The notes under the pieces: generated by a model
The model's input: the letters and a program-made list of their open reading frames with translations, nothing else
What the model was told of the DNA's origin: nothing
Database searches by the model: none
In this document: positions 12,667-63,778 of the stretch, one piece after another
Position numbering within the stretch: position 1 is the stretch's first letter
How the letters are laid out: each line of letters opens with the position of its first letter
Assembly (NCBI GenBank): GCA_035487555.1
Contig: DATHMA010000158.1
Location: forward strand, 1,143-65,142
Reading direction: 5' to 3'
Source of the DNA: Bradyrhizobium sp.
GTDB lineage: Bacteria; Pseudomonadota; Alphaproteobacteria; Rhizobiales; Xanthobacteraceae
DNA: 64,000 nt
Program-made: the position numbers and the translations under genes

Positions 12667-14355
12667 TCACACTCTCGTCATGTCGTATTTCGGCTTCTGG
12701 CCGCTGCCATAGCGCCGCAAGGCGCCGTCCTCGCCGACCGCGTTCGGGCGCTGGAAGATCCAGTTCTGCCACGCGGTCAGGCGCGCGAAGATTTTCGATT
12801 CCATGGTCTCGGGCCCGACGAAGCGCAGATTGGCTTCCATGCCGGTGAGGCTGTCGGGCGAGAAAGAGGCGCGCTCCTCGAAGAAGACGCGGATCTCGTC
12901 GTCCCAGTCGATATCATCGAGCGCGAAGGTGATGAGACCAAGTTCTTCCGCCTCCTCCGCATCGAGCGTCGTGCCGATGGTCGCTTCCGCGCGCTCGACA
13001 TCAGAGGGATCAGCCTGGAAGCGCGATTGCAGCCGGGTCAGGCCATGGCTCATCGGATAGGGCCCGAAATTCATCGCGGAGAGTTGCAGCGACGGCGGCG
13101 GACGGTTATCGCCCTGCCGCGAGCCGATCAGCATGTAGGAGCGGTCGGCGGCAAACACGAGCTCGGCCAAGGTGCCGACAAAGCAGGAGCCCGGCTCGAC
13201 CAGCGTCACCAGCGTGCGTGAGGTGACGTCGATGCGTTTCAAGACACGCTTGAAGAACTGCCTGACCTCGTTGACCAGCCAGTGCGCCTTGTTGCCGTCG
13301 AGGAACGCGTCGTAGCTCAGGACATTCGCGCCATCGCCATGCGACTTGAACACCAGCAGCGCGATTTCGAGCTCATTGATGCGCAGGTGCAGGATCGCAT
13401 CATCAAGCTCGCGCGCGACTTGCAGCGGCCAGAACGACGCTCCTTGCGCGATCATCCCGTCGATATCGGCAGGTGCCGCAGTTTCGGGCGCCTTGATCGA
13501 GATCGTCGCCACGCGCGCGGCGCGATCGACATCGACGCTGACGAAATCATAGCGAACGCCGTTCTCGTCGATGGCGCGGTTGAGCGGCGCAAGCGCAACG
13601 CCCTTGCCATTGCCGTTGCGCTTCGAGGCGGCGGCGAATTCCTTGGTGCGCTCGGTGATCTTGCTTTCCAGCTTGGAGTTCGGCGCGATCTCGTCGACCA
13701 AGCGCCAGGCGACGGCGCGCTTGCCCTTGATGCCTTCCTCGATGGTGCAGAAGAAGTCGGCGTGGTCGCGGCGCACCTTGCGCTTGTCGACAACGCGCGT
13801 TAGCCCGCCGGTGCCGGGCAGCACCGCCAGCAGCGGCACTTCCGGCAGCGCCACGGCGGCCGCGCCGTCGTCCGCAAGGATGATGTGATCGGTCGCGAGC
13901 GCCAGCTCATAACCGCCGCCGGCGGCGGTGCCGTTGATGACGGCGATGTAGCGCTGGCCCGAATTTTCCGCGGAGTCCTCGAGGCCGTTGCGGGTCTCAT
14001 TGGTGAATTTGCAAAAATTGACCTTGTGCGCGTGCGTCGCGCCCGCGAGCATGCGGATATTGGCGCCGGCGCAGAACACGCGGTTCTTGCCCGAGCGGAT
14101 CACGACGACCTTCACCTGCGGATACTCGAAGCGCAGCCGCTGCACGGCATCCGCCAGTTCGATATCGACGCCGAGATCATAGGAATTGAGTTTGAGCTGG
14201 TAGCCCTCGAACAGGCCGCCATCCTCGTCGACATCCATGGTCAGGGTCGCGGTATCAGCCTCGACCGCGAGCTTCCAGTGCCGGTAGCGCGACGGATCGG
14301 TCTGGAAATCGATGTATTTCGCTCCCCTGGCGAGCACGCGATCTTCACCGGCCAT
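12667..14355 (-). CDS. boxC: 2,3-epoxybenzoyl-CoA dihydrolase BoxC
   Basis: KLNSYDLGVDIELADAVQRLRF, FCAGANI crotonase fold; next to boxB. Confidence 0.95.
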   Translation of the reverse strand: MAGEDRVLARGAKYIDFQTDPSRYRHWKLAVEADTATLTMDVDEDGGLFEGYQLKLNSYDLGVDIELADAVQRLRFEYPQVKVVVIRSGKNRVFCAGANIRMLAGATHAHKVNFCKFTNETRNGLEDSAENSGQRYIAVINGTAAGGGYELALATDHIILADDGAAAVALPEVPLLAVLPGTGGLTRVVDKRKVRRDHADFFCTIEEGIKGKRAVAWRLVDEIAPNSKLESKITERTKEFAAASKRNGNGKGVALAPLNRAIDENGVRYDFVSVDVDRAARVATISIKAPETAAPADIDGMIAQGASFWPLQVARELDDAILHLRINELEIALLVFKSHGDGANVLSYDAFLDGNKAHWLVNEVRQFFKRVLKRIDVTSRTLVTLVEPGSCFVGTLAELVFAADRSYMLIGSRQGDNRPPPSLQLSAMNFGPYPMSHGLTRLQSRFQADPSDVERAEATIGTTLDAEEAEELGLITFALDDIDWDDEIRVFFEERASFSPDSLTGMEANLRFVGPETMESKIFARLTAWQNWIFQRPNAVGEDGALRRYGSGQKPKYDMTRV

Positions 14356-34087: not shown

Positions 34088-34186
34088 CGTCATTCCGGGG
34101 CGCGCGTTAGCGCGAGCCCGGAATCCATCACCACGAGCGGGGTTATGGATTCCGGGCCTGGCCCTTCGGACCATCCCGGAATGACG
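34088..34186. repeat. CGTC-type REP doublet (gtcattccgg family), empty form of the 60885 cassette
   Basis: cgtcattccggggcg...cccggaatccat / atggattccggg...cccggaatgacg. Confidence 0.88.
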
Positions 34187-59412: not shown

Positions 59413-59493
59413 CGTAGGATGGGTTGAACGAAGTGAAACCCATCTTGCATGCCGAGAGAACGATGGGTTTCGCTGTGCTCAACCCATCCTACG
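59413..59493. repeat. GTAG-type REP doublet
   Basis: cgtaggatgggttga...gaaacccatc / gatgggtttc...tcaacccatcctacg. Confidence 0.88.
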
Positions 59494-59499
59494 ATTCGT

Positions 59500-60786
59500 T
59501 CACGACACCGTCACCATGCCGCTCCAGAACTGGTACTCGCCGCCGGTTTCGATCTCGGTATTGCCGGCAAACGTGAGCTTGCCGTCGGCGCCCACATGGA
59601 AGGTCGCGATGTTGGCGGGAATGGTCTTGAAGCCGGCCCCGTCGCGAACGAGCTTCGGCTCGTTGTCGGTCACCGCCAGCATGCGTGCGCCCGGATCGAG
59701 CGCGAAGGTACGCGGATAGATGCCGCGCACATCCTCGTTCTGGATCAGCGAGGGCTCACCGCTCGACGGGTCGATCGCAAACACCGCGATGTTGTTCTCC
59801 CCGCCGGGAAATACCTCCTTGCCGTCGACCTTTACGGTGTCGAAGGCGCGGTTAGCGAGATAGAGGAAGCGGCCGCTCGGCTGGAAATGCAGCGTGCAGG
59901 CGGCCTGGCGCGAGCGAATGTTGTTCGGGTCGGCGAGCGTATCCTTGACGAAGATCGGCTGCGGCTCGAGCCCGCCGCTTGTAAGCCGGTACACATCGAG
60001 CTTGTTCTCGCGCTCGCGCGACACATAGACCAGCGGCAAGGTAGGGTGAAAATCAAGATGACGCGGACCAAAACCGTAGCCACCGTTCGGCGCCACCGAC
60101 ACGCGATTTTCGAGCTGGCCGTCCTTGAACGCGAAGAGTTTTAGCGAGCCGGGGTCCTCCGGCTTGTCCTTAGTTTTGTCGTTGCCACGGCACACCAGGA
60201 TCGCGGCGTCGTTCGCCGGCGTCACGCGAATCTGATGCGCGAAGATTCCGCAATCGAGCGAGGCCGTCTGCACCACTTCTTCGCCGACGGTGCCGTCGGC
60301 ATTGATCCGATGCACCGAGACGCTGGAGGGGTTGTTATAGGCGACCAGCGCGAAGCGGCCGCTGTGATCGACATTCACATGGATCGGGCGCGAGCGCAGC
60401 GAAGCCGATGACCCGTGCATTTGCAGCTCGCCGCTGCTCTTGTCGATGCGAAGCGCGCTCAGATAATGCTTGTCGCCCTTGACCCCGAGCGATGAGGAGC
60501 CGCCATCGCTCGATCCGACATACAGAAACGGCGCCGACGGATGCGGCCAGGCATACTGCACCTTTTGCGGCAGCATCGCCGTGCCGCTGGGTGTGAGCGA
60601 CGCCTTCTCGGGATCGACGCGGTAGAGTTTCAGCGCGGGGCCGAGGCTGGCGTAGAAGAAGGTTTGACCGGTCGTCGCCTGGCTCATGGCCTCATCCTTT
60701 TCTTGTTTGCTTTTTTGACCCAAGGCGACCCGCGGCACAGCAAGCGCACCGGCAGCGATCGCGCAAAATTCGCGACGTCCAAGCAT
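59500..60786 (-). CDS. Lactonase-family beta-propeller (6-phosphogluconolactonase-like), Tat-exported
   Basis: GRREFC Tat motif; AHQI, GPRHLDFHP, YLANR, PRTFALDP. Confidence 0.85.
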   Translation of the reverse strand: MLGRREFCAIAAGALAVPRVALGQKSKQEKDEAMSQATTGQTFFYASLGPALKLYRVDPEKASLTPSGTAMLPQKVQYAWPHPSAPFLYVGSSDGGSSSLGVKGDKHYLSALRIDKSSGELQMHGSSASLRSRPIHVNVDHSGRFALVAYNNPSSVSVHRINADGTVGEEVVQTASLDCGIFAHQIRVTPANDAAILVCRGNDKTKDKPEDPGSLKLFAFKDGQLENRVSVAPNGGYGFGPRHLDFHPTLPLVYVSRERENKLDVYRLTSGGLEPQPIFVKDTLADPNNIRSRQAACTLHFQPSGRFLYLANRAFDTVKVDGKEVFPGGENNIAVFAIDPSSGEPSLIQNEDVRGIYPRTFALDPGARMLAVTDNEPKLVRDGAGFKTIPANIATFHVGADGKLTFAGNTEIETGGEYQFWSGMVTVS

Positions 60787-60884
60787 GGTGTGTTCTCCCG
60801 ATTGCCGCGCCGTTGTCCGGCGTCGGCGTTTTGGTGAGACATGTTACCACATTTCATAGACGTGCTACGATGGCTCTATCCTTT

Positions 60885-61282
60885 GTCATTCCGGGGCGAC
60901 GCGAAGCGTCGAGCCCGGAATCCATAACCACCGGCGGCAGTGATGGCCTATTTACGTCTATCTGCTTGCGAGCAAGAAACACGGCACACTCTATCTTGGC
61001 GTGACCAATGATCTCGAGCGGCGCGTATACGAGCATCGAACGAAGGCGACAAAAGGTTTCACTGCCCGATATGGCGTCGATAAACTGGTCTGGTTTGAAG
61101 TTTATGACGATGCCCTCACCGCCATTGTACGGGAGAAAGAGCTGAAGAAATGGCGGCGGGATTGGAAGATTCGGCTGATTGAAGAGCAGAACCCGGACTG
61201 GGGCGATCTCTATCCTGGGATATCCAGCTAAGGCTGTGGTTATGGATTCCGGGCTCGACGCTTCGCGTCGCCCCGGAATGAC
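60885..61282. mobile_element. REP-bounded GIY-YIG cassette with perfect 47-bp terminal inverted repeats
   Basis: 60885-60931 is the exact reverse complement of 61236-61282; encloses only the nuclease gene; mobility is inferred. Confidence 0.7.
60943..61231 (+). pseudogene. Small GIY-YIG nuclease (UPF0213/YhbQ-like), +1 frameshift after codon 3
   Basis: ATG GCC TAT T TAC GTC TAT; removing one T gives MAYYVYLLASKKHGTLYLGVTNDLERRVYEH...AIVREKELKKWRRDWKIRLIEEQNPDW. Confidence 0.85.
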
Positions 61283-61300
61283 GAGTGGAGATAGTAGGGC

Positions 61301-62440
61301 TCAATAGCTCCGCATCCGCGCTAGCTGATCGGCGTGGTAATTCGCGTCGCCGAACAGCTCTTCGCACACCCGCGCGCGCTTCATGAAGAAGCCGATGTCG
61401 AACTGGTCGGTCATGCCCATGCCGCCATGCATCTGCACGCCTTCCTGCACCGCGCGGGTGGCTGTGGTGCCGGCGCGGGCCTTGGCGACGGCGACGGCGT
61501 TCGCCGCTTTGTCGAAATTGCCATCCAGCATTTGCAGCGCTTTCAGCACGGCGGCGCGGGTGATCTCGATGTCGATATAGAGCTGCGCCGCGCGATGCTG
61601 CAGCGCCTGGAATTCGCCGATGGCCTTGCCGAACTGCTTGCGTTCTTTCAGGTAGTTCACGGTGCGGGAAAACACCTCTTCGCTCAAACCCACCATTTCG
61701 GAGGCGACCGCGCCGCGGCCGATATTGAGTACGCCTTCGAGCAGGCCAAAGCCGGCATCGACCTCGCCGAGCACGTGATCGGCATCGACCTCGACATTGG
61801 CGAAATCGATGCGCGCGGCGTTATGCGCGTCGACCAGGATGGTGCGCTCGGTGGCGATGCCTTTGCTCTTTGGATCGACCAGAAACAGCGTCACACCCTC
61901 GCGCTCACCGGCCGAGCCAGCGGTCCGTGCCGCGACGATCAGGAGATCGGCGACATGGCCGTCGACCACGAGCGCCTTGGCGCCGCTGAGCTTGAAGCCG
62001 TTGCCGGAGCGCACAGCCTTGAGCTCGGTCTGCAGCGGGCGATGTTTGGCGCCCTCATCGACCGCGAGCGAGGCCAGCAGCGAGCCGGCCGAAATCTTCG
62101 GCAGATATTCCGACTTCTGCGCGTTACTTCCGCCGCGCGACAAGGCCGACGCCGCCACCACCGCGGTCGACAGGAACGGCGACGGCATCAAGGTGCGGCC
62201 GATCTCCTCCATCACCACGCCGGCTTCGACACAGCCGAGCCCACTGCCGCCGTGCTCTTCGCCGACCAGGAGGCCAGCAAATCCCATGTCGGCAAACTCC
62301 TTCCAGAGCTCGCGGGAGAAGCCGGTGGCGTCCCTTGCGTCGCGCAGATGCCGAAGATGTGACACCGGCGCCTTGTCGCTGATAAGGCCGCGCGCGCTGT
62401 CGCGCAGCATTGATTGTTCTTCTGTGAGGACGAGGGCCAT
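61301..62440 (-). CDS. Acyl-CoA dehydrogenase (beta-type subunit)
   Basis: ERKQFGKAIGEFQALQHR, VQMHGGMG. Confidence 0.9.
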   Translation of the reverse strand: MALVLTEEQSMLRDSARGLISDKAPVSHLRHLRDARDATGFSRELWKEFADMGFAGLLVGEEHGGSGLGCVEAGVVMEEIGRTLMPSPFLSTAVVAASALSRGGSNAQKSEYLPKISAGSLLASLAVDEGAKHRPLQTELKAVRSGNGFKLSGAKALVVDGHVADLLIVAARTAGSAGEREGVTLFLVDPKSKGIATERTILVDAHNAARIDFANVEVDADHVLGEVDAGFGLLEGVLNIGRGAVASEMVGLSEEVFSRTVNYLKERKQFGKAIGEFQALQHRAAQLYIDIEITRAAVLKALQMLDGNFDKAANAVAVAKARAGTTATRAVQEGVQMHGGMGMTDQFDIGFFMKRARVCEELFGDANYHADQLARMRSY

Positions 62441-62474
62441 GATGTGCTTCCGCTTGTCGAATATCTATTGAGAT

Positions 62475-62575
62475 CGTCATTCCGGGATGGCCCGAAAGGC
62501 CAGGCCCGGAATCCATAACCACGGAGTGGGGTTATGGATTCCGGGCTCGCGACTGCGTCGCGCCCCGGAATGACG
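62475..62575. repeat. CGTC-type REP doublet (gtcattccgg family)
   Basis: cgtcattccggga...cccggaatccataacc / ggttatggattccggg...ccccggaatgacg. Confidence 0.88.
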
Positions 62576-62593
62576 GGTGGTGGTGCACCGCGA

Positions 62594-63778
<1,185 letters not shown>

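What the first reader, a model, noticed from the sequence alone, without database searches (positions are those of the whole stretch)
60885..61282. GIY-YIG nuclease gene framed by perfect REP inverted repeats: a REPtron-like element without a tyrosine transposase
Seen: a 398-bp unit made of a 47-bp arm (gtcattccggggcgacgcgaagcgtcgagcccggaatccataaccac), a ~95-codon stand-alone GIY-YIG gene and the exact reverse complement of the arm. Each arm is itself a hairpin. The same arm family occurs as gene-less doublets at 34088-34186 and 62475-62575. Known: GTAG-type REPs are mobilised by RAYT HUH transposases encoded between REPs; I know of no established mobiliser for CGTC-type REPs. Inference: this small nuclease may be the cognate enzyme that nicks and disperses gtcattccgg REPs, making cassette plus doublets an autonomous/non-autonomous pair. 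Perfect arm identity suggests recent activity or homogenisation.
Basis: partly seen in the sequence, partly recalled or inferred. Interest (0 to 1): 0.88.

Follow-up and report, generated by a model that had tools for sequence, protein, structure and literature searches.

The report
Broken Ssn nuclease gene inside REP doublet
A small DNA-cutting enzyme gene, here broken by one extra base, sits between two inverted copies of the hairpin repeat that this enzyme family recognises; the pairing was described in 2025 (Ssn nucleases), so this is a new example of a known system.

Summary
Two 47-nt arms (60885-60931, 61236-61282) are exact reverse complements. They frame a 95-codon GIY-YIG frame, and each arm folds as a hairpin. 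The gene is broken by one extra T after codon 3, and independent soil metagenome contigs carry the same T.

The unit is an Ssn-type cassette. Chenal et al. 2025 (PMC11893778) showed that 94-aa single-domain GIY-YIG proteins (SsnA) are flanked by CGTC-tagged hairpin repeats (NTS/SRM). SsnA binds these repeats as single-stranded DNA and cuts just upstream of them.

- Relatives of the window protein in NTS-rich genomes are framed by canonical NTS pairs.
- The residues Y6, Y17 and E64 are conserved.
- Most of 76 close homologues keep the repeat-gene-repeat layout in about 40 genomic contexts.
- More distant paralogues carry other repeat families, matched to protein clade.
- At this site the closest syntenic relatives hold a different repeat doublet and no cassette.

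The "disperser" idea remains untested, and it is weakened by genomes that hold many repeats but no such gene.

This scan has noted the same pairing many times on other DNA. Novelty is low: a new member of a known kind.

The parts
60885..60931 (+). Left arm. It reads TGTC tag, then ATTCCGGG outer stem, a nested 6-bp inner stem with a GAA loop, CCCGGAAT, the CCA tail, and CATAACCAC (the left half of the central stem of the doublet family).
60943..60951 (+). Orphaned start ATG-GCC-TAT. It is in frame +1 relative to the GIY-YIG frame because of one extra T in the run 60951-60953.
   Evidence: The same sequence is present in four metagenome or RNA-library assemblies.
60944..61231 (+). Frame of an ssnA-family single-domain GIY-YIG nuclease: 95 codons, stop at 61229-61231. 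It has no in-frame ATG, GTG or TTG before the GTG at 61001, so it is a likely pseudogene.
61236..61282 (-). Right arm, the exact reverse complement of the left arm. Its tag on the minus strand is CGTC.
34088..34186 (.). Gene-less head-to-head doublet of the same REP family with a 22-nt spacer. As ssDNA it folds into a four-arm cloverleaf.
62475..62575 (.). Gene-less head-to-head doublet of the same REP family with a 23-nt spacer, lying between the two acyl-CoA dehydrogenase genes.

Best explanation
The 398-bp unit is an Ssn-type cassette. It is a gene of the SsnA family (single-domain, about 95-aa GIY-YIG, site-specific single-stranded-DNA nucleases) lying in the central loop of a head-to-head doublet of its cognate CGTC-tagged hairpin repeat. 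The repeat is a Bradyrhizobium-lineage variant of the NTS/SRM repeats and carries a nested inner hairpin.

Shown for tested homologues in print: the protein binds the folded repeat on one strand of ssDNA only. Binding depends on the stem and on the C just after it. Cleavage depends on the GTC just before the stem and occurs a few nt upstream.

Inferred here: the intact relatives of this gene do the same on the ATTCCGGG...CCCGGAAT repeat. Because the two arms are inverted, the predicted cuts on the two strands fall just outside the two ends of the unit. That is exactly where similarity between cassettes from different contexts begins and ends.

This copy: it is inactivated by a 1-nt insertion at codon 4, and its left arm has been converted to the sequence of its right arm. 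It reached the lactonase-ACAD spacer in this lineage only.
For: Protein identity:
- PF01541 match.
- Model with pLDDT 93.7; best structural matches are UPF0213 1zg2 and the Slx1 nuclease domain.
- Y17 and E64 are invariant and Y6 is nearly invariant. These are the residues whose mutation abolishes SsnA cleavage (PMC11893778).
- Homologues with 47-57% identity (E 1e-28 to 1e-31) in NTS-rich genomes are framed by inverted canonical NTS. L220 has a 30/30 inverted repeat equal to the NTS consensus.

Conserved layout:
- 50 of 76 close homologues have a strict REP core in both flanks and 67 of 76 have at least one. The chance expectation for both sides is 7e-5.
- Spacing is fixed.
- The boundaries of similarity lie at the GTCAT...ATGAC ends.
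- 12 of 29 alphaproteobacterial loci, each from a different genome, have an inverted repeat of 20 nt or more, against 0 of 387 random placements.

Specificity:
- The repeat stem type changes 18 times on the protein tree. The minimum possible is 16 and shuffles give 33-36.
- Single genomes hold several paralogues, each with its own repeat type.

Selection: median dN/dS is 0.10.

Site history: syntenic contigs L192 and L183 (89-91% nt) hold another CGTC repeat doublet at this spot, and L190 holds a remnant.
Against: - The published degenerate SRM search motif does not match the window's arms, because their loop is an 18-nt nested hairpin.
- CDD cd10448 assignment and direct comparison with the N. 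meningitidis protein could not be done here.
- No enzymatic test exists for this repeat type.
- The window copy is broken, so nothing can be said about its own activity.
Confidence: 0.88

Rival explanations
1. RAYT-like mobiliser. The nuclease cuts at the outer edges of REP doublets and thereby drives their excision and spread. Under this reading the cassette is the autonomous form and the gene-less doublets are the non-autonomous form.
For: - There is usually one gene copy per clade per genome against tens to hundreds of doublets.
- The doublets have the same ends and inner CATAACCAC/GTGGTTATG stem as the cassette.
- Cassettes occur in about 40 contexts, with similarity ending at the repeat ends.
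- The lactonase-ACAD spacer shows turnover of repeat elements.
- The median REP count is 37 in genomes with the clade-A gene and 2 in genomes without it.
- The published discussion raises the same idea.
Against: - GIY-YIG enzymes hydrolyse DNA and are not known to join strands (established knowledge of the family).
- No target-site duplication was found here.
- No recent duplicate copies were found.
- 11 of 150 genomes have 50 or more REPs without a clade-A gene, and 8 have the gene with fewer than 10 REPs.
- Within-genus contrasts are 10 to 4, which is not significant.
- About 32 of 80 close homologues sit at one conserved site after groEL.
Confidence: 0.3
2. Host-serving ssDNA nuclease. The repeats are genomic address tags, and the enzyme trims incoming or exposed ssDNA at them, as shown for transformation in Neisseria. 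The repeats around its own gene are a relic of its origin or serve self-regulation.
For: - SsnA knockout raises transformation 5-fold for NTS-bearing DNA only (PMC11893778).
- Strong purifying selection on the protein.
- The gene is typically single-copy per clade and is largely syntenic after groEL.
Against: - Natural transformation is not an established trait of this lineage (my knowledge, not tested).
- The gene is often lost or frameshifted while the repeats persist.
- This reading does not explain why each paralogue keeps its own repeat pair at fixed spacing.
Confidence: 0.35
3. Selfish homing-type gene. The nuclease cuts empty doublets, and the cassette is copied into them by repair that uses the arms as homology. 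Under this reading the repeats spread by other means.
For: - The gene occupies exactly the loop of a doublet.
- REP families exist without the gene.
- The cassette lies in both orientations at the groEL site.
Against: - Only one of 24 doublets in this genome is filled.
- No genome in the sample shows many near-identical copies.
- The published cut site is outside the repeat, not in the doublet centre.
Confidence: 0.1
4. Chance or insertion bias. REPs merely tend to land beside a small repair-nuclease gene that has no link to them.
For: REPs crowd intergenic spacers in this operon.
Against: - Fixed spacing and orientation hold across contexts and across repeat families.
- 0 of 387 control placements reached an inverted repeat of 16 nt or more.
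Confidence: 0.02

Closest known systems
Ssn nucleases with NTS/SRM hairpin repeats (SsnA of Neisseria meningitidis; Chenal et al. 2025, Nat Commun 16:2388, PMC11893778)
   Same: - A single-domain GIY-YIG protein of about 95 aa.
- Conserved Y6, Y17 and E64.
- The gene is framed by inverted, oriented hairpin repeats that begin (C/T)GTCAT and end ...AATCC.
- The same repeat is dispersed through the genome.
- Homologues of the window protein are flanked by canonical NTS.
   Different: - The repeat has an 18-nt nested hairpin where NTS has a 3-5 nt loop, so the published SRM search motif misses it.
- Most copies form doublets with an extra 9-bp central stem.
- This gene copy is frameshifted.
- No activity data exist for this clade.
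CGTC-tagged REP superfamily (Di Nocera, De Gregorio and Rocco 2013, PMC3733652), which includes Neisseria dRS3 and Bradyrhizobium CGTC-1
   Same: - A CGTC or TGTC tag.
- A stem opening with AT.
- A CCA tail.
- Extragenic location.
- Mostly head-to-head dimers.
- That paper already recorded odd loops in Bradyrhizobium.
   Different: That paper found no dedicated enzyme. The Ssn paper supplies a cognate nuclease but does not cite the CGTC classification.
REP/REPIN with RAYT (TnpA-REP) genes, 'REPtrons'
   Same: - An enzyme gene of about one copy per genome lies between inverted copies of the hairpin repeat that populates the genome as doublets.
- The action is at the ssDNA hairpin level.
   Different: - The enzyme is a GIY-YIG hydrolase, not a Y1 HUH transposase.
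- The repeats are CGTC-tagged, not GTAG-tagged.
- No Y1_Tnp gene was found in this 64%-complete genome.
Slx1 structure-specific endonuclease and bacterial UPF0213 proteins (PDB 6seh, 1zg2)
   Same: The fold of the catalytic domain: rmsd 2.4 A over 72 columns to Slx1, and E 4e-5 to 1zg2.
   Different: There is no RING domain and no Slx4 partner. The target is a sequence-tagged ssDNA hairpin rather than branched duplex DNA.

Membership tests
Ssn nuclease family (cd10448) | Single-domain GIY-YIG protein of about 94 aa | tested here: met
   PF01541 covers residues 3-76 of the 95-codon frame. The model of the orthologue has one compact domain.
Ssn nuclease family (cd10448) | Catalytic residues Y6, Y17 and E64 | tested here: met
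   Y17 and E64 are invariant and Y6 is nearly invariant in alignment A1. All three are present in the window frame. The window ORF itself is cut off from its start codon.
Ssn nuclease family (cd10448) | Homology (E below 1e-10) to ssnA genes flanked by NTS | tested here: met
   E values are 1e-28 to 1e-31 to genes framed by canonical NTS in G450, G409 and G435. This is a proxy, because the N. meningitidis protein itself was not on hand.
Ssn nuclease family (cd10448) | Assignment to CDD model cd10448 | not testable with these tools
   No CDD library is available. NCBIfam gave no family above its cut-off.
Ssn nuclease family (cd10448) | Site-specific cleavage of ssDNA only, next to its repeat | not testable with these tools
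   This needs a nuclease assay.
SRM / NTS repeats | Match to the published degenerate search motif HGTCWYN(0-2)YYVSBRHN(0-5)WNVSBRGN(0-2)RNCYNB | tested here: not met
   0 matches in the window and 50 in the genome, the latter from other repeat families. The arms share the tag, the start of the stem and the tail with the motif, but they carry an 18-nt nested hairpin in the loop.
SRM / NTS repeats | Oriented hairpin repeats on both sides of the gene, in inverted orientation | tested here: met
CGTC-tagged REPs | CGTC or TGTC tag, stem opening with AT, short CCA tail | tested here: met
   Left arm TGTC-ATTCC...GGAAT-CCA and right arm CGTC. Genome-wide, 52 of 66 copies read C and 65 of 66 read G at the two positions before TCATT, which together form the CGTC tag.
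CGTC-tagged REPs | High copy number, extragenic location, mostly head-to-head dimers | tested here: met
   66 copies and 24 convergent doublets in a 64%-complete genome.
REPtron (REP with RAYT) | Encodes a Y1 HUH tyrosine transposase | tested here: not met
   The only domain is GIY-YIG. No PF01797 match in the genome.
Insertion sequence with MITE derivatives | Target-site duplication and several near-identical copies | tested here: not met
   There is no direct repeat at the ends. The genome has one gene copy and no other exact arm.

The most novel reading that the evidence does not exclude
Ssn nucleases are the long-sought enzymes that excise and spread the whole CGTC-tagged REP superfamily. 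Each protein clade would serve its own repeat family. The cassette would be the autonomous form and the doublets the non-autonomous form, as with RAYT and REPIN, but built on a hydrolytic GIY-YIG enzyme that cuts ssDNA just outside both ends of a doublet.
Probability: 0.3. Interest if true: 0.7.

Novelty: new member of a known kind. Interest (0 to 1): 0.3.

Why it matters
The pairing of a tiny nuclease with a dispersed hairpin repeat is real, but it has been in print since 2025, so this window mainly adds an example from a soil Bradyrhizobium-like genome.

- Several paralogues in one genome each keep their own repeat family.
- The gene sits in the loop of a REPIN-like doublet.
- Repeat elements turn over at one spacer.
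- Repeat families often outlive the gene.

These facts bear on the still open question of how CGTC-tagged repeats spread.

Tried and rejected
- Rfam scan of the window: no family.
- Promoter scan around the cassette: none found.
- NCBIfam: nothing above cut-off.
- Homodimer prediction: no verdict, so it is not used.
- Exact 26-nt left-flank search of metagenome contigs: no match.
- Joints that skip about 300 nt between the arms in laid contigs: their sides are under 30 nt and they carry other letters between, so they are other doublets elsewhere and not excision products.
- RNA-library contigs cover the inside of the cassette. The tool cannot tell RNA from carried-over DNA or give the strand, so transcription is not claimed.
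- Long-spacer doublets (64-117 nt) were tested as gene remnants. They share only the inner ends with the cassette.
- A clean empty site could not be defined. The middle of the spacer is not alignable between the window and L192.
- A 'CTATC' motif outside the arms: 6 of 66 copies against 3% background, which is too weak to call.
- The supplementary tables of the Ssn paper are not held, so I could not check whether Bradyrhizobium is listed there.

Full report
**What is there**

The two arms, 60885-60931 and 61236-61282, are 47 nt long and exact reverse complements, with 304 nt between them. Nothing comparable occurs in shuffled sequence. Each arm folds on its own as single-stranded DNA, at -15.8 and -15.3 kcal/mol with z about -5.5. 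The fold has an 8-bp outer stem ATTCCGGG/CCCGGAAT, a small internal loop, and a 6-bp inner stem closed by GAA.

Between the arms, the frame 60944-61231 matches the GIY-YIG domain (PF01541, E 7e-16). The gene is broken. The ATG at 60943 lies in another frame and TGA sits at 60941. Every one of 80 homologues reads ATG-GCn-TAY-TAC-GTC where the window reads ATGGCCTAT-T-TACGTC, so the window has one extra T in the run 60951-60953.

Contigs from two DNA runs of different studies cover this spot without any difference (X1 60902-61265, X3 60903-60982). So do contigs from two RNA-library runs. The frameshift therefore exists in the population and is not a slip of this assembly.

**The repeat family**

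The window lies in a 4.59-Mb, 64%-complete soil MAG of a genus with 7-10 Mb genomes. The record titles of the best homologues point to Bradyrhizobium.

- The genome holds 66 oriented copies of TCATTCCGGG...CCCGGAATC and 24 convergent pairs.
- The pairs read cgTCATTCCGGG-stem-CCCGGAATC CATAACCAC N4-6 GTGGTTATG GATTCCGGG-stem-CCCGGAATGAcg.
- The 47-nt arm is thus one repeat plus its half of the doublet's central stem, and the gene sits where a doublet normally has a 4-6 nt loop.
- Among all convergent pairs in the genome, this is the only one with an ORF-sized spacer.
- Six doublets carry 64-117 nt of unrelated insert instead, including a 115-nt module present three times.
- The inner stems differ between copies (50 distinct of 66). 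Even so, 86% keep a perfect stem of 5 bp or more, against 17% of chimeric controls. The loops are mostly C-GAA-G.
- The two bases before TCATT are C in 52 of 66 copies and G in 65 of 66, which gives the CGTC tag. The tail is CCA.

These are the marks of the CGTC-tagged REPs of Di Nocera et al. 2013. That paper also noted unusual loops in Bradyrhizobium and stated that these repeats "apparently lack a dedicated transposase" (PMC3733652).

**Is the gene-repeat pairing more than chance?**

Eighty homologous loci were fetched from Bradyrhizobium, Rhodopseudomonas, Tardiphaga, Afipia, Nitrobacter and related MAGs.

- 50 of the 76 loci with both flanks available carry a strict repeat core within 200 bp on both sides, and 67 of 76 carry one on at least one side.
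- The repeat density further out in the same loci is 0.088 per kb, which predicts 7e-5 for both sides.
- Spacing is fixed: the repeat, then CATAACCAC, about 10 nt, then ATG; and the stop codon, about 5 nt, then GTGGTTATGGATTCCGGG.
- In an alignment of 16 cassettes from different surroundings, similarity starts at (c/t)GTCATTCCGGGG and ends at CCCCGGAATGACg. The flanks are unrelated.
- Across 29 further alphaproteobacterial loci, each from a different genome, 12 have a near-perfect inverted repeat of 20 nt or more around the gene. None of 387 random placements in the same loci does, and the largest control value is 14.

**Specificity**

More distant paralogues (52-64% identity) are framed by other GTC-tagged hairpins, for example:
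- GTCATGGCCGGGCTTGTCCCGGCCATCCA
- GTCATTGCCGGGCTTGACCCGGCAATCCA
- GTCATCGCCCGCGAAGGCGGGCGATCCA

Their left and right copies are often identical. On a tree of 154 proteins, the 8-nt stem type changes 18 times. The minimum possible is 16, and shuffled labels need 33-36 changes. Kin share labels, so this count alone does not prove co-evolution. However, single genomes (G002, G068, G076, G087, G120) hold two or three paralogues, each with its own repeat type. This shows that the neighbouring repeat is not simply the commonest one in the genome. The protein is under strong purifying selection, with median dN/dS 0.10 over 1335 pairs.

**It is already described**

Early literature searches for GIY-YIG together with REP terms found nothing. 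A search for GIY-YIG with CGTC found Chenal et al. [quoted passage not shown] The paper reports the following.

- The Neisseria NTS repeat is CGTCATTCCCGCGMAVGCGGGAATCYRG, an oriented form of dRS3. Di Nocera files dRS3 under CGTC-1.
- The 94-aa single-domain GIY-YIG gene ssnA (CDD cd10448) is flanked by such repeats in 71% of homologues, and on both sides in 42%.
- SsnA binds the repeat only as ssDNA, on one strand only, and cuts a few nt upstream.
- The mutations Y6A, Y17A and E64A stop cleavage.
- The GTC before the stem governs cutting, and the C after the stem governs binding.
- Extensions placed in the loop are tolerated.
- Knocking out ssnA raises transformation by NTS-bearing DNA five-fold.
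- The discussion notes that NTS-ssnA-NTS looks like an insertion sequence and compares it with IS200/IS605, REP and BIME.
- The paper does not use the terms CGTC REP, RAYT or REPIN.

**Membership tests run here**

- In an alignment of 31 relatives, Y17 and E64 are invariant and Y6 is nearly invariant.
- The model of the orthologue is confident (pLDDT 93.7). It is closest to UPF0213 protein 1zg2 and then to the Slx1 nuclease domain, with rmsd 2.4 A.
- In genomes of other classes with 140-270 NTS copies, homologues of the window protein (47-57% identity, E 1e-28 to 1e-31) are framed by canonical NTS in inverted pairs. One alphaproteobacterial homologue has a 30/30 inverted repeat equal to the NTS consensus.
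- The published degenerate SRM motif does not match the window's arms. Their loop is an 18-nt nested hairpin rather than 0-5 nt. The first nine bases (CGTCATTCC) and the end (GGAATCC) are the same as in NTS.
- CDD assignment and enzyme activity could not be tested.

**History of this copy**

- The genome holds one copy only.
- About 32 of the 80 close homologues share one site, just after groES-groEL. In four of them the cassette is inverted relative to that site.
- In this genome, the site after groEL is empty.
- The other homologues lie in about 40 different surroundings.
- In 15 same-genus genomes the ACAD orthologue is present, and similarity stops at its stop codon. The neighbouring spacer there holds other CGTC repeat families and no cassette. 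One of these genomes, G166, is unpublished, and the statement does not depend on it.
- Two metagenome contigs, L192 and L183, keep the lactonase-ACAD order, with lactonase 89-90% and ACAD 91% (L192) or 83% (L183) nt identity to the window. Their spacer holds a doublet of another family (GTCATCACCCGCGAAGGCGGGTGATCCAGTA ... GATGAC). A third contig, L190, holds only a remnant.
- The cassette is therefore specific to this lineage at this site, and the spacer has seen turnover of repeat elements. The middle of the spacer cannot be aligned, and there is no target duplication, so the mode of arrival is open.
- The window's two arms both carry the stem CGACGC/GCGTCG. The nearest relatives carry it only in the right arm (L011 exactly, L021 with one change), and their left arms differ. 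The perfect symmetry here is therefore a conversion of one arm by the other, not an ancestral state.

**Does the nuclease spread the repeats?**

Across 150 genomes of the GTDB family, the repeat count rises with the presence of a clade-A gene. The median is 37 against 2, and Fisher p is about 1e-5 without correction for kinship. Within genera the contrast is 10 to 4, which is not significant. Eleven genomes have 50 or more repeats and no clade-A gene. Two of them, G036 and G038, are assemblies of one or two contigs, and two others, G089 and G112, hold frameshifted remnants like the window's. Eight genomes have the gene with fewer than 10 strict repeats.

The repeats therefore persist well without the gene. 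This fits slow decay after loss, service by another enzyme, or no dependence at all.

One point favours a role at element ends. With the published geometry, a cut a few nt 5' of the tag on the strand that carries the tag, the two cuts on a head-to-head doublet or cassette fall just outside its two ends. That is where the similarity boundaries lie. This is an inference.

As ssDNA the doublets fold into a four-arm cloverleaf (-40 and -47 kcal/mol, z -7.8 and -11.3). The cassette folds into a 48-bp stem with the gene in the loop, z -13.

**Verdict**

The unit is a frameshifted member of the published Ssn/SRM system, sitting in a CGTC-type REP doublet. This scan's earlier notes show the same pairing in many other genomes.

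Noticed in passing
window 59414-59493: A GTAG-type REP doublet (GTAGGATGGGTTGAACGAAGTGAAACCCATC ... GATGGGTTTCGCTGTGCTCAACCCATCCTAC) lies just after the lactonase stop codon. GTAG-tagged and CGTC-tagged repeats therefore coexist in this operon. No Y1/RAYT gene was found in the 64%-complete genome.
   Followed up: partly
G000 contigs C186:16361-16552, C79:8219-8403, C146:~13477-13585: Three doublets carry the same palindromic insert of about 115 nt in their central loop, in either orientation. Other doublets carry unique inserts of 50-55 nt. None of these inserts is a remnant of the nuclease gene.
   Followed up: partly
L004:3280-5081 and about 30 other loci: In many Bradyrhizobium genomes the cassette sits at one conserved site directly after groES-groEL. 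In L023, L043, L046 and L049 it is inverted relative to those flanks, as expected from recombination between its arms.
   Followed up: partly
L006, L017, L031, L032: In some loci at the groEL site the gene lies between two complete doublets, with the nearest repeats facing outward, instead of inside one doublet.
   Followed up: no
G000, 24 nt upstream of each of the 66 repeats: The outer flank is pyrimidine-rich and G-poor at positions -14 to -5, often ctctctcc. This is the region where the published enzyme would cut.
   Followed up: no
G000 whole genome: There are 50 matches to the published SRM motif, from other CGTC repeat families. Yet only one ssn-like gene, broken and of another repeat type, was found in this incomplete genome.
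   Followed up: no
L061:3332-3463: A second, partial GIY-YIG fragment (70% identity, 44 codons) lies just downstream of the intact cassette.
   Followed up: no
window 59500-63778: The two acyl-CoA dehydrogenase genes and the lactonase gene all lie on the minus strand, with a repeat element in each spacer. The nuclease frame is antisense to them.
   Followed up: no
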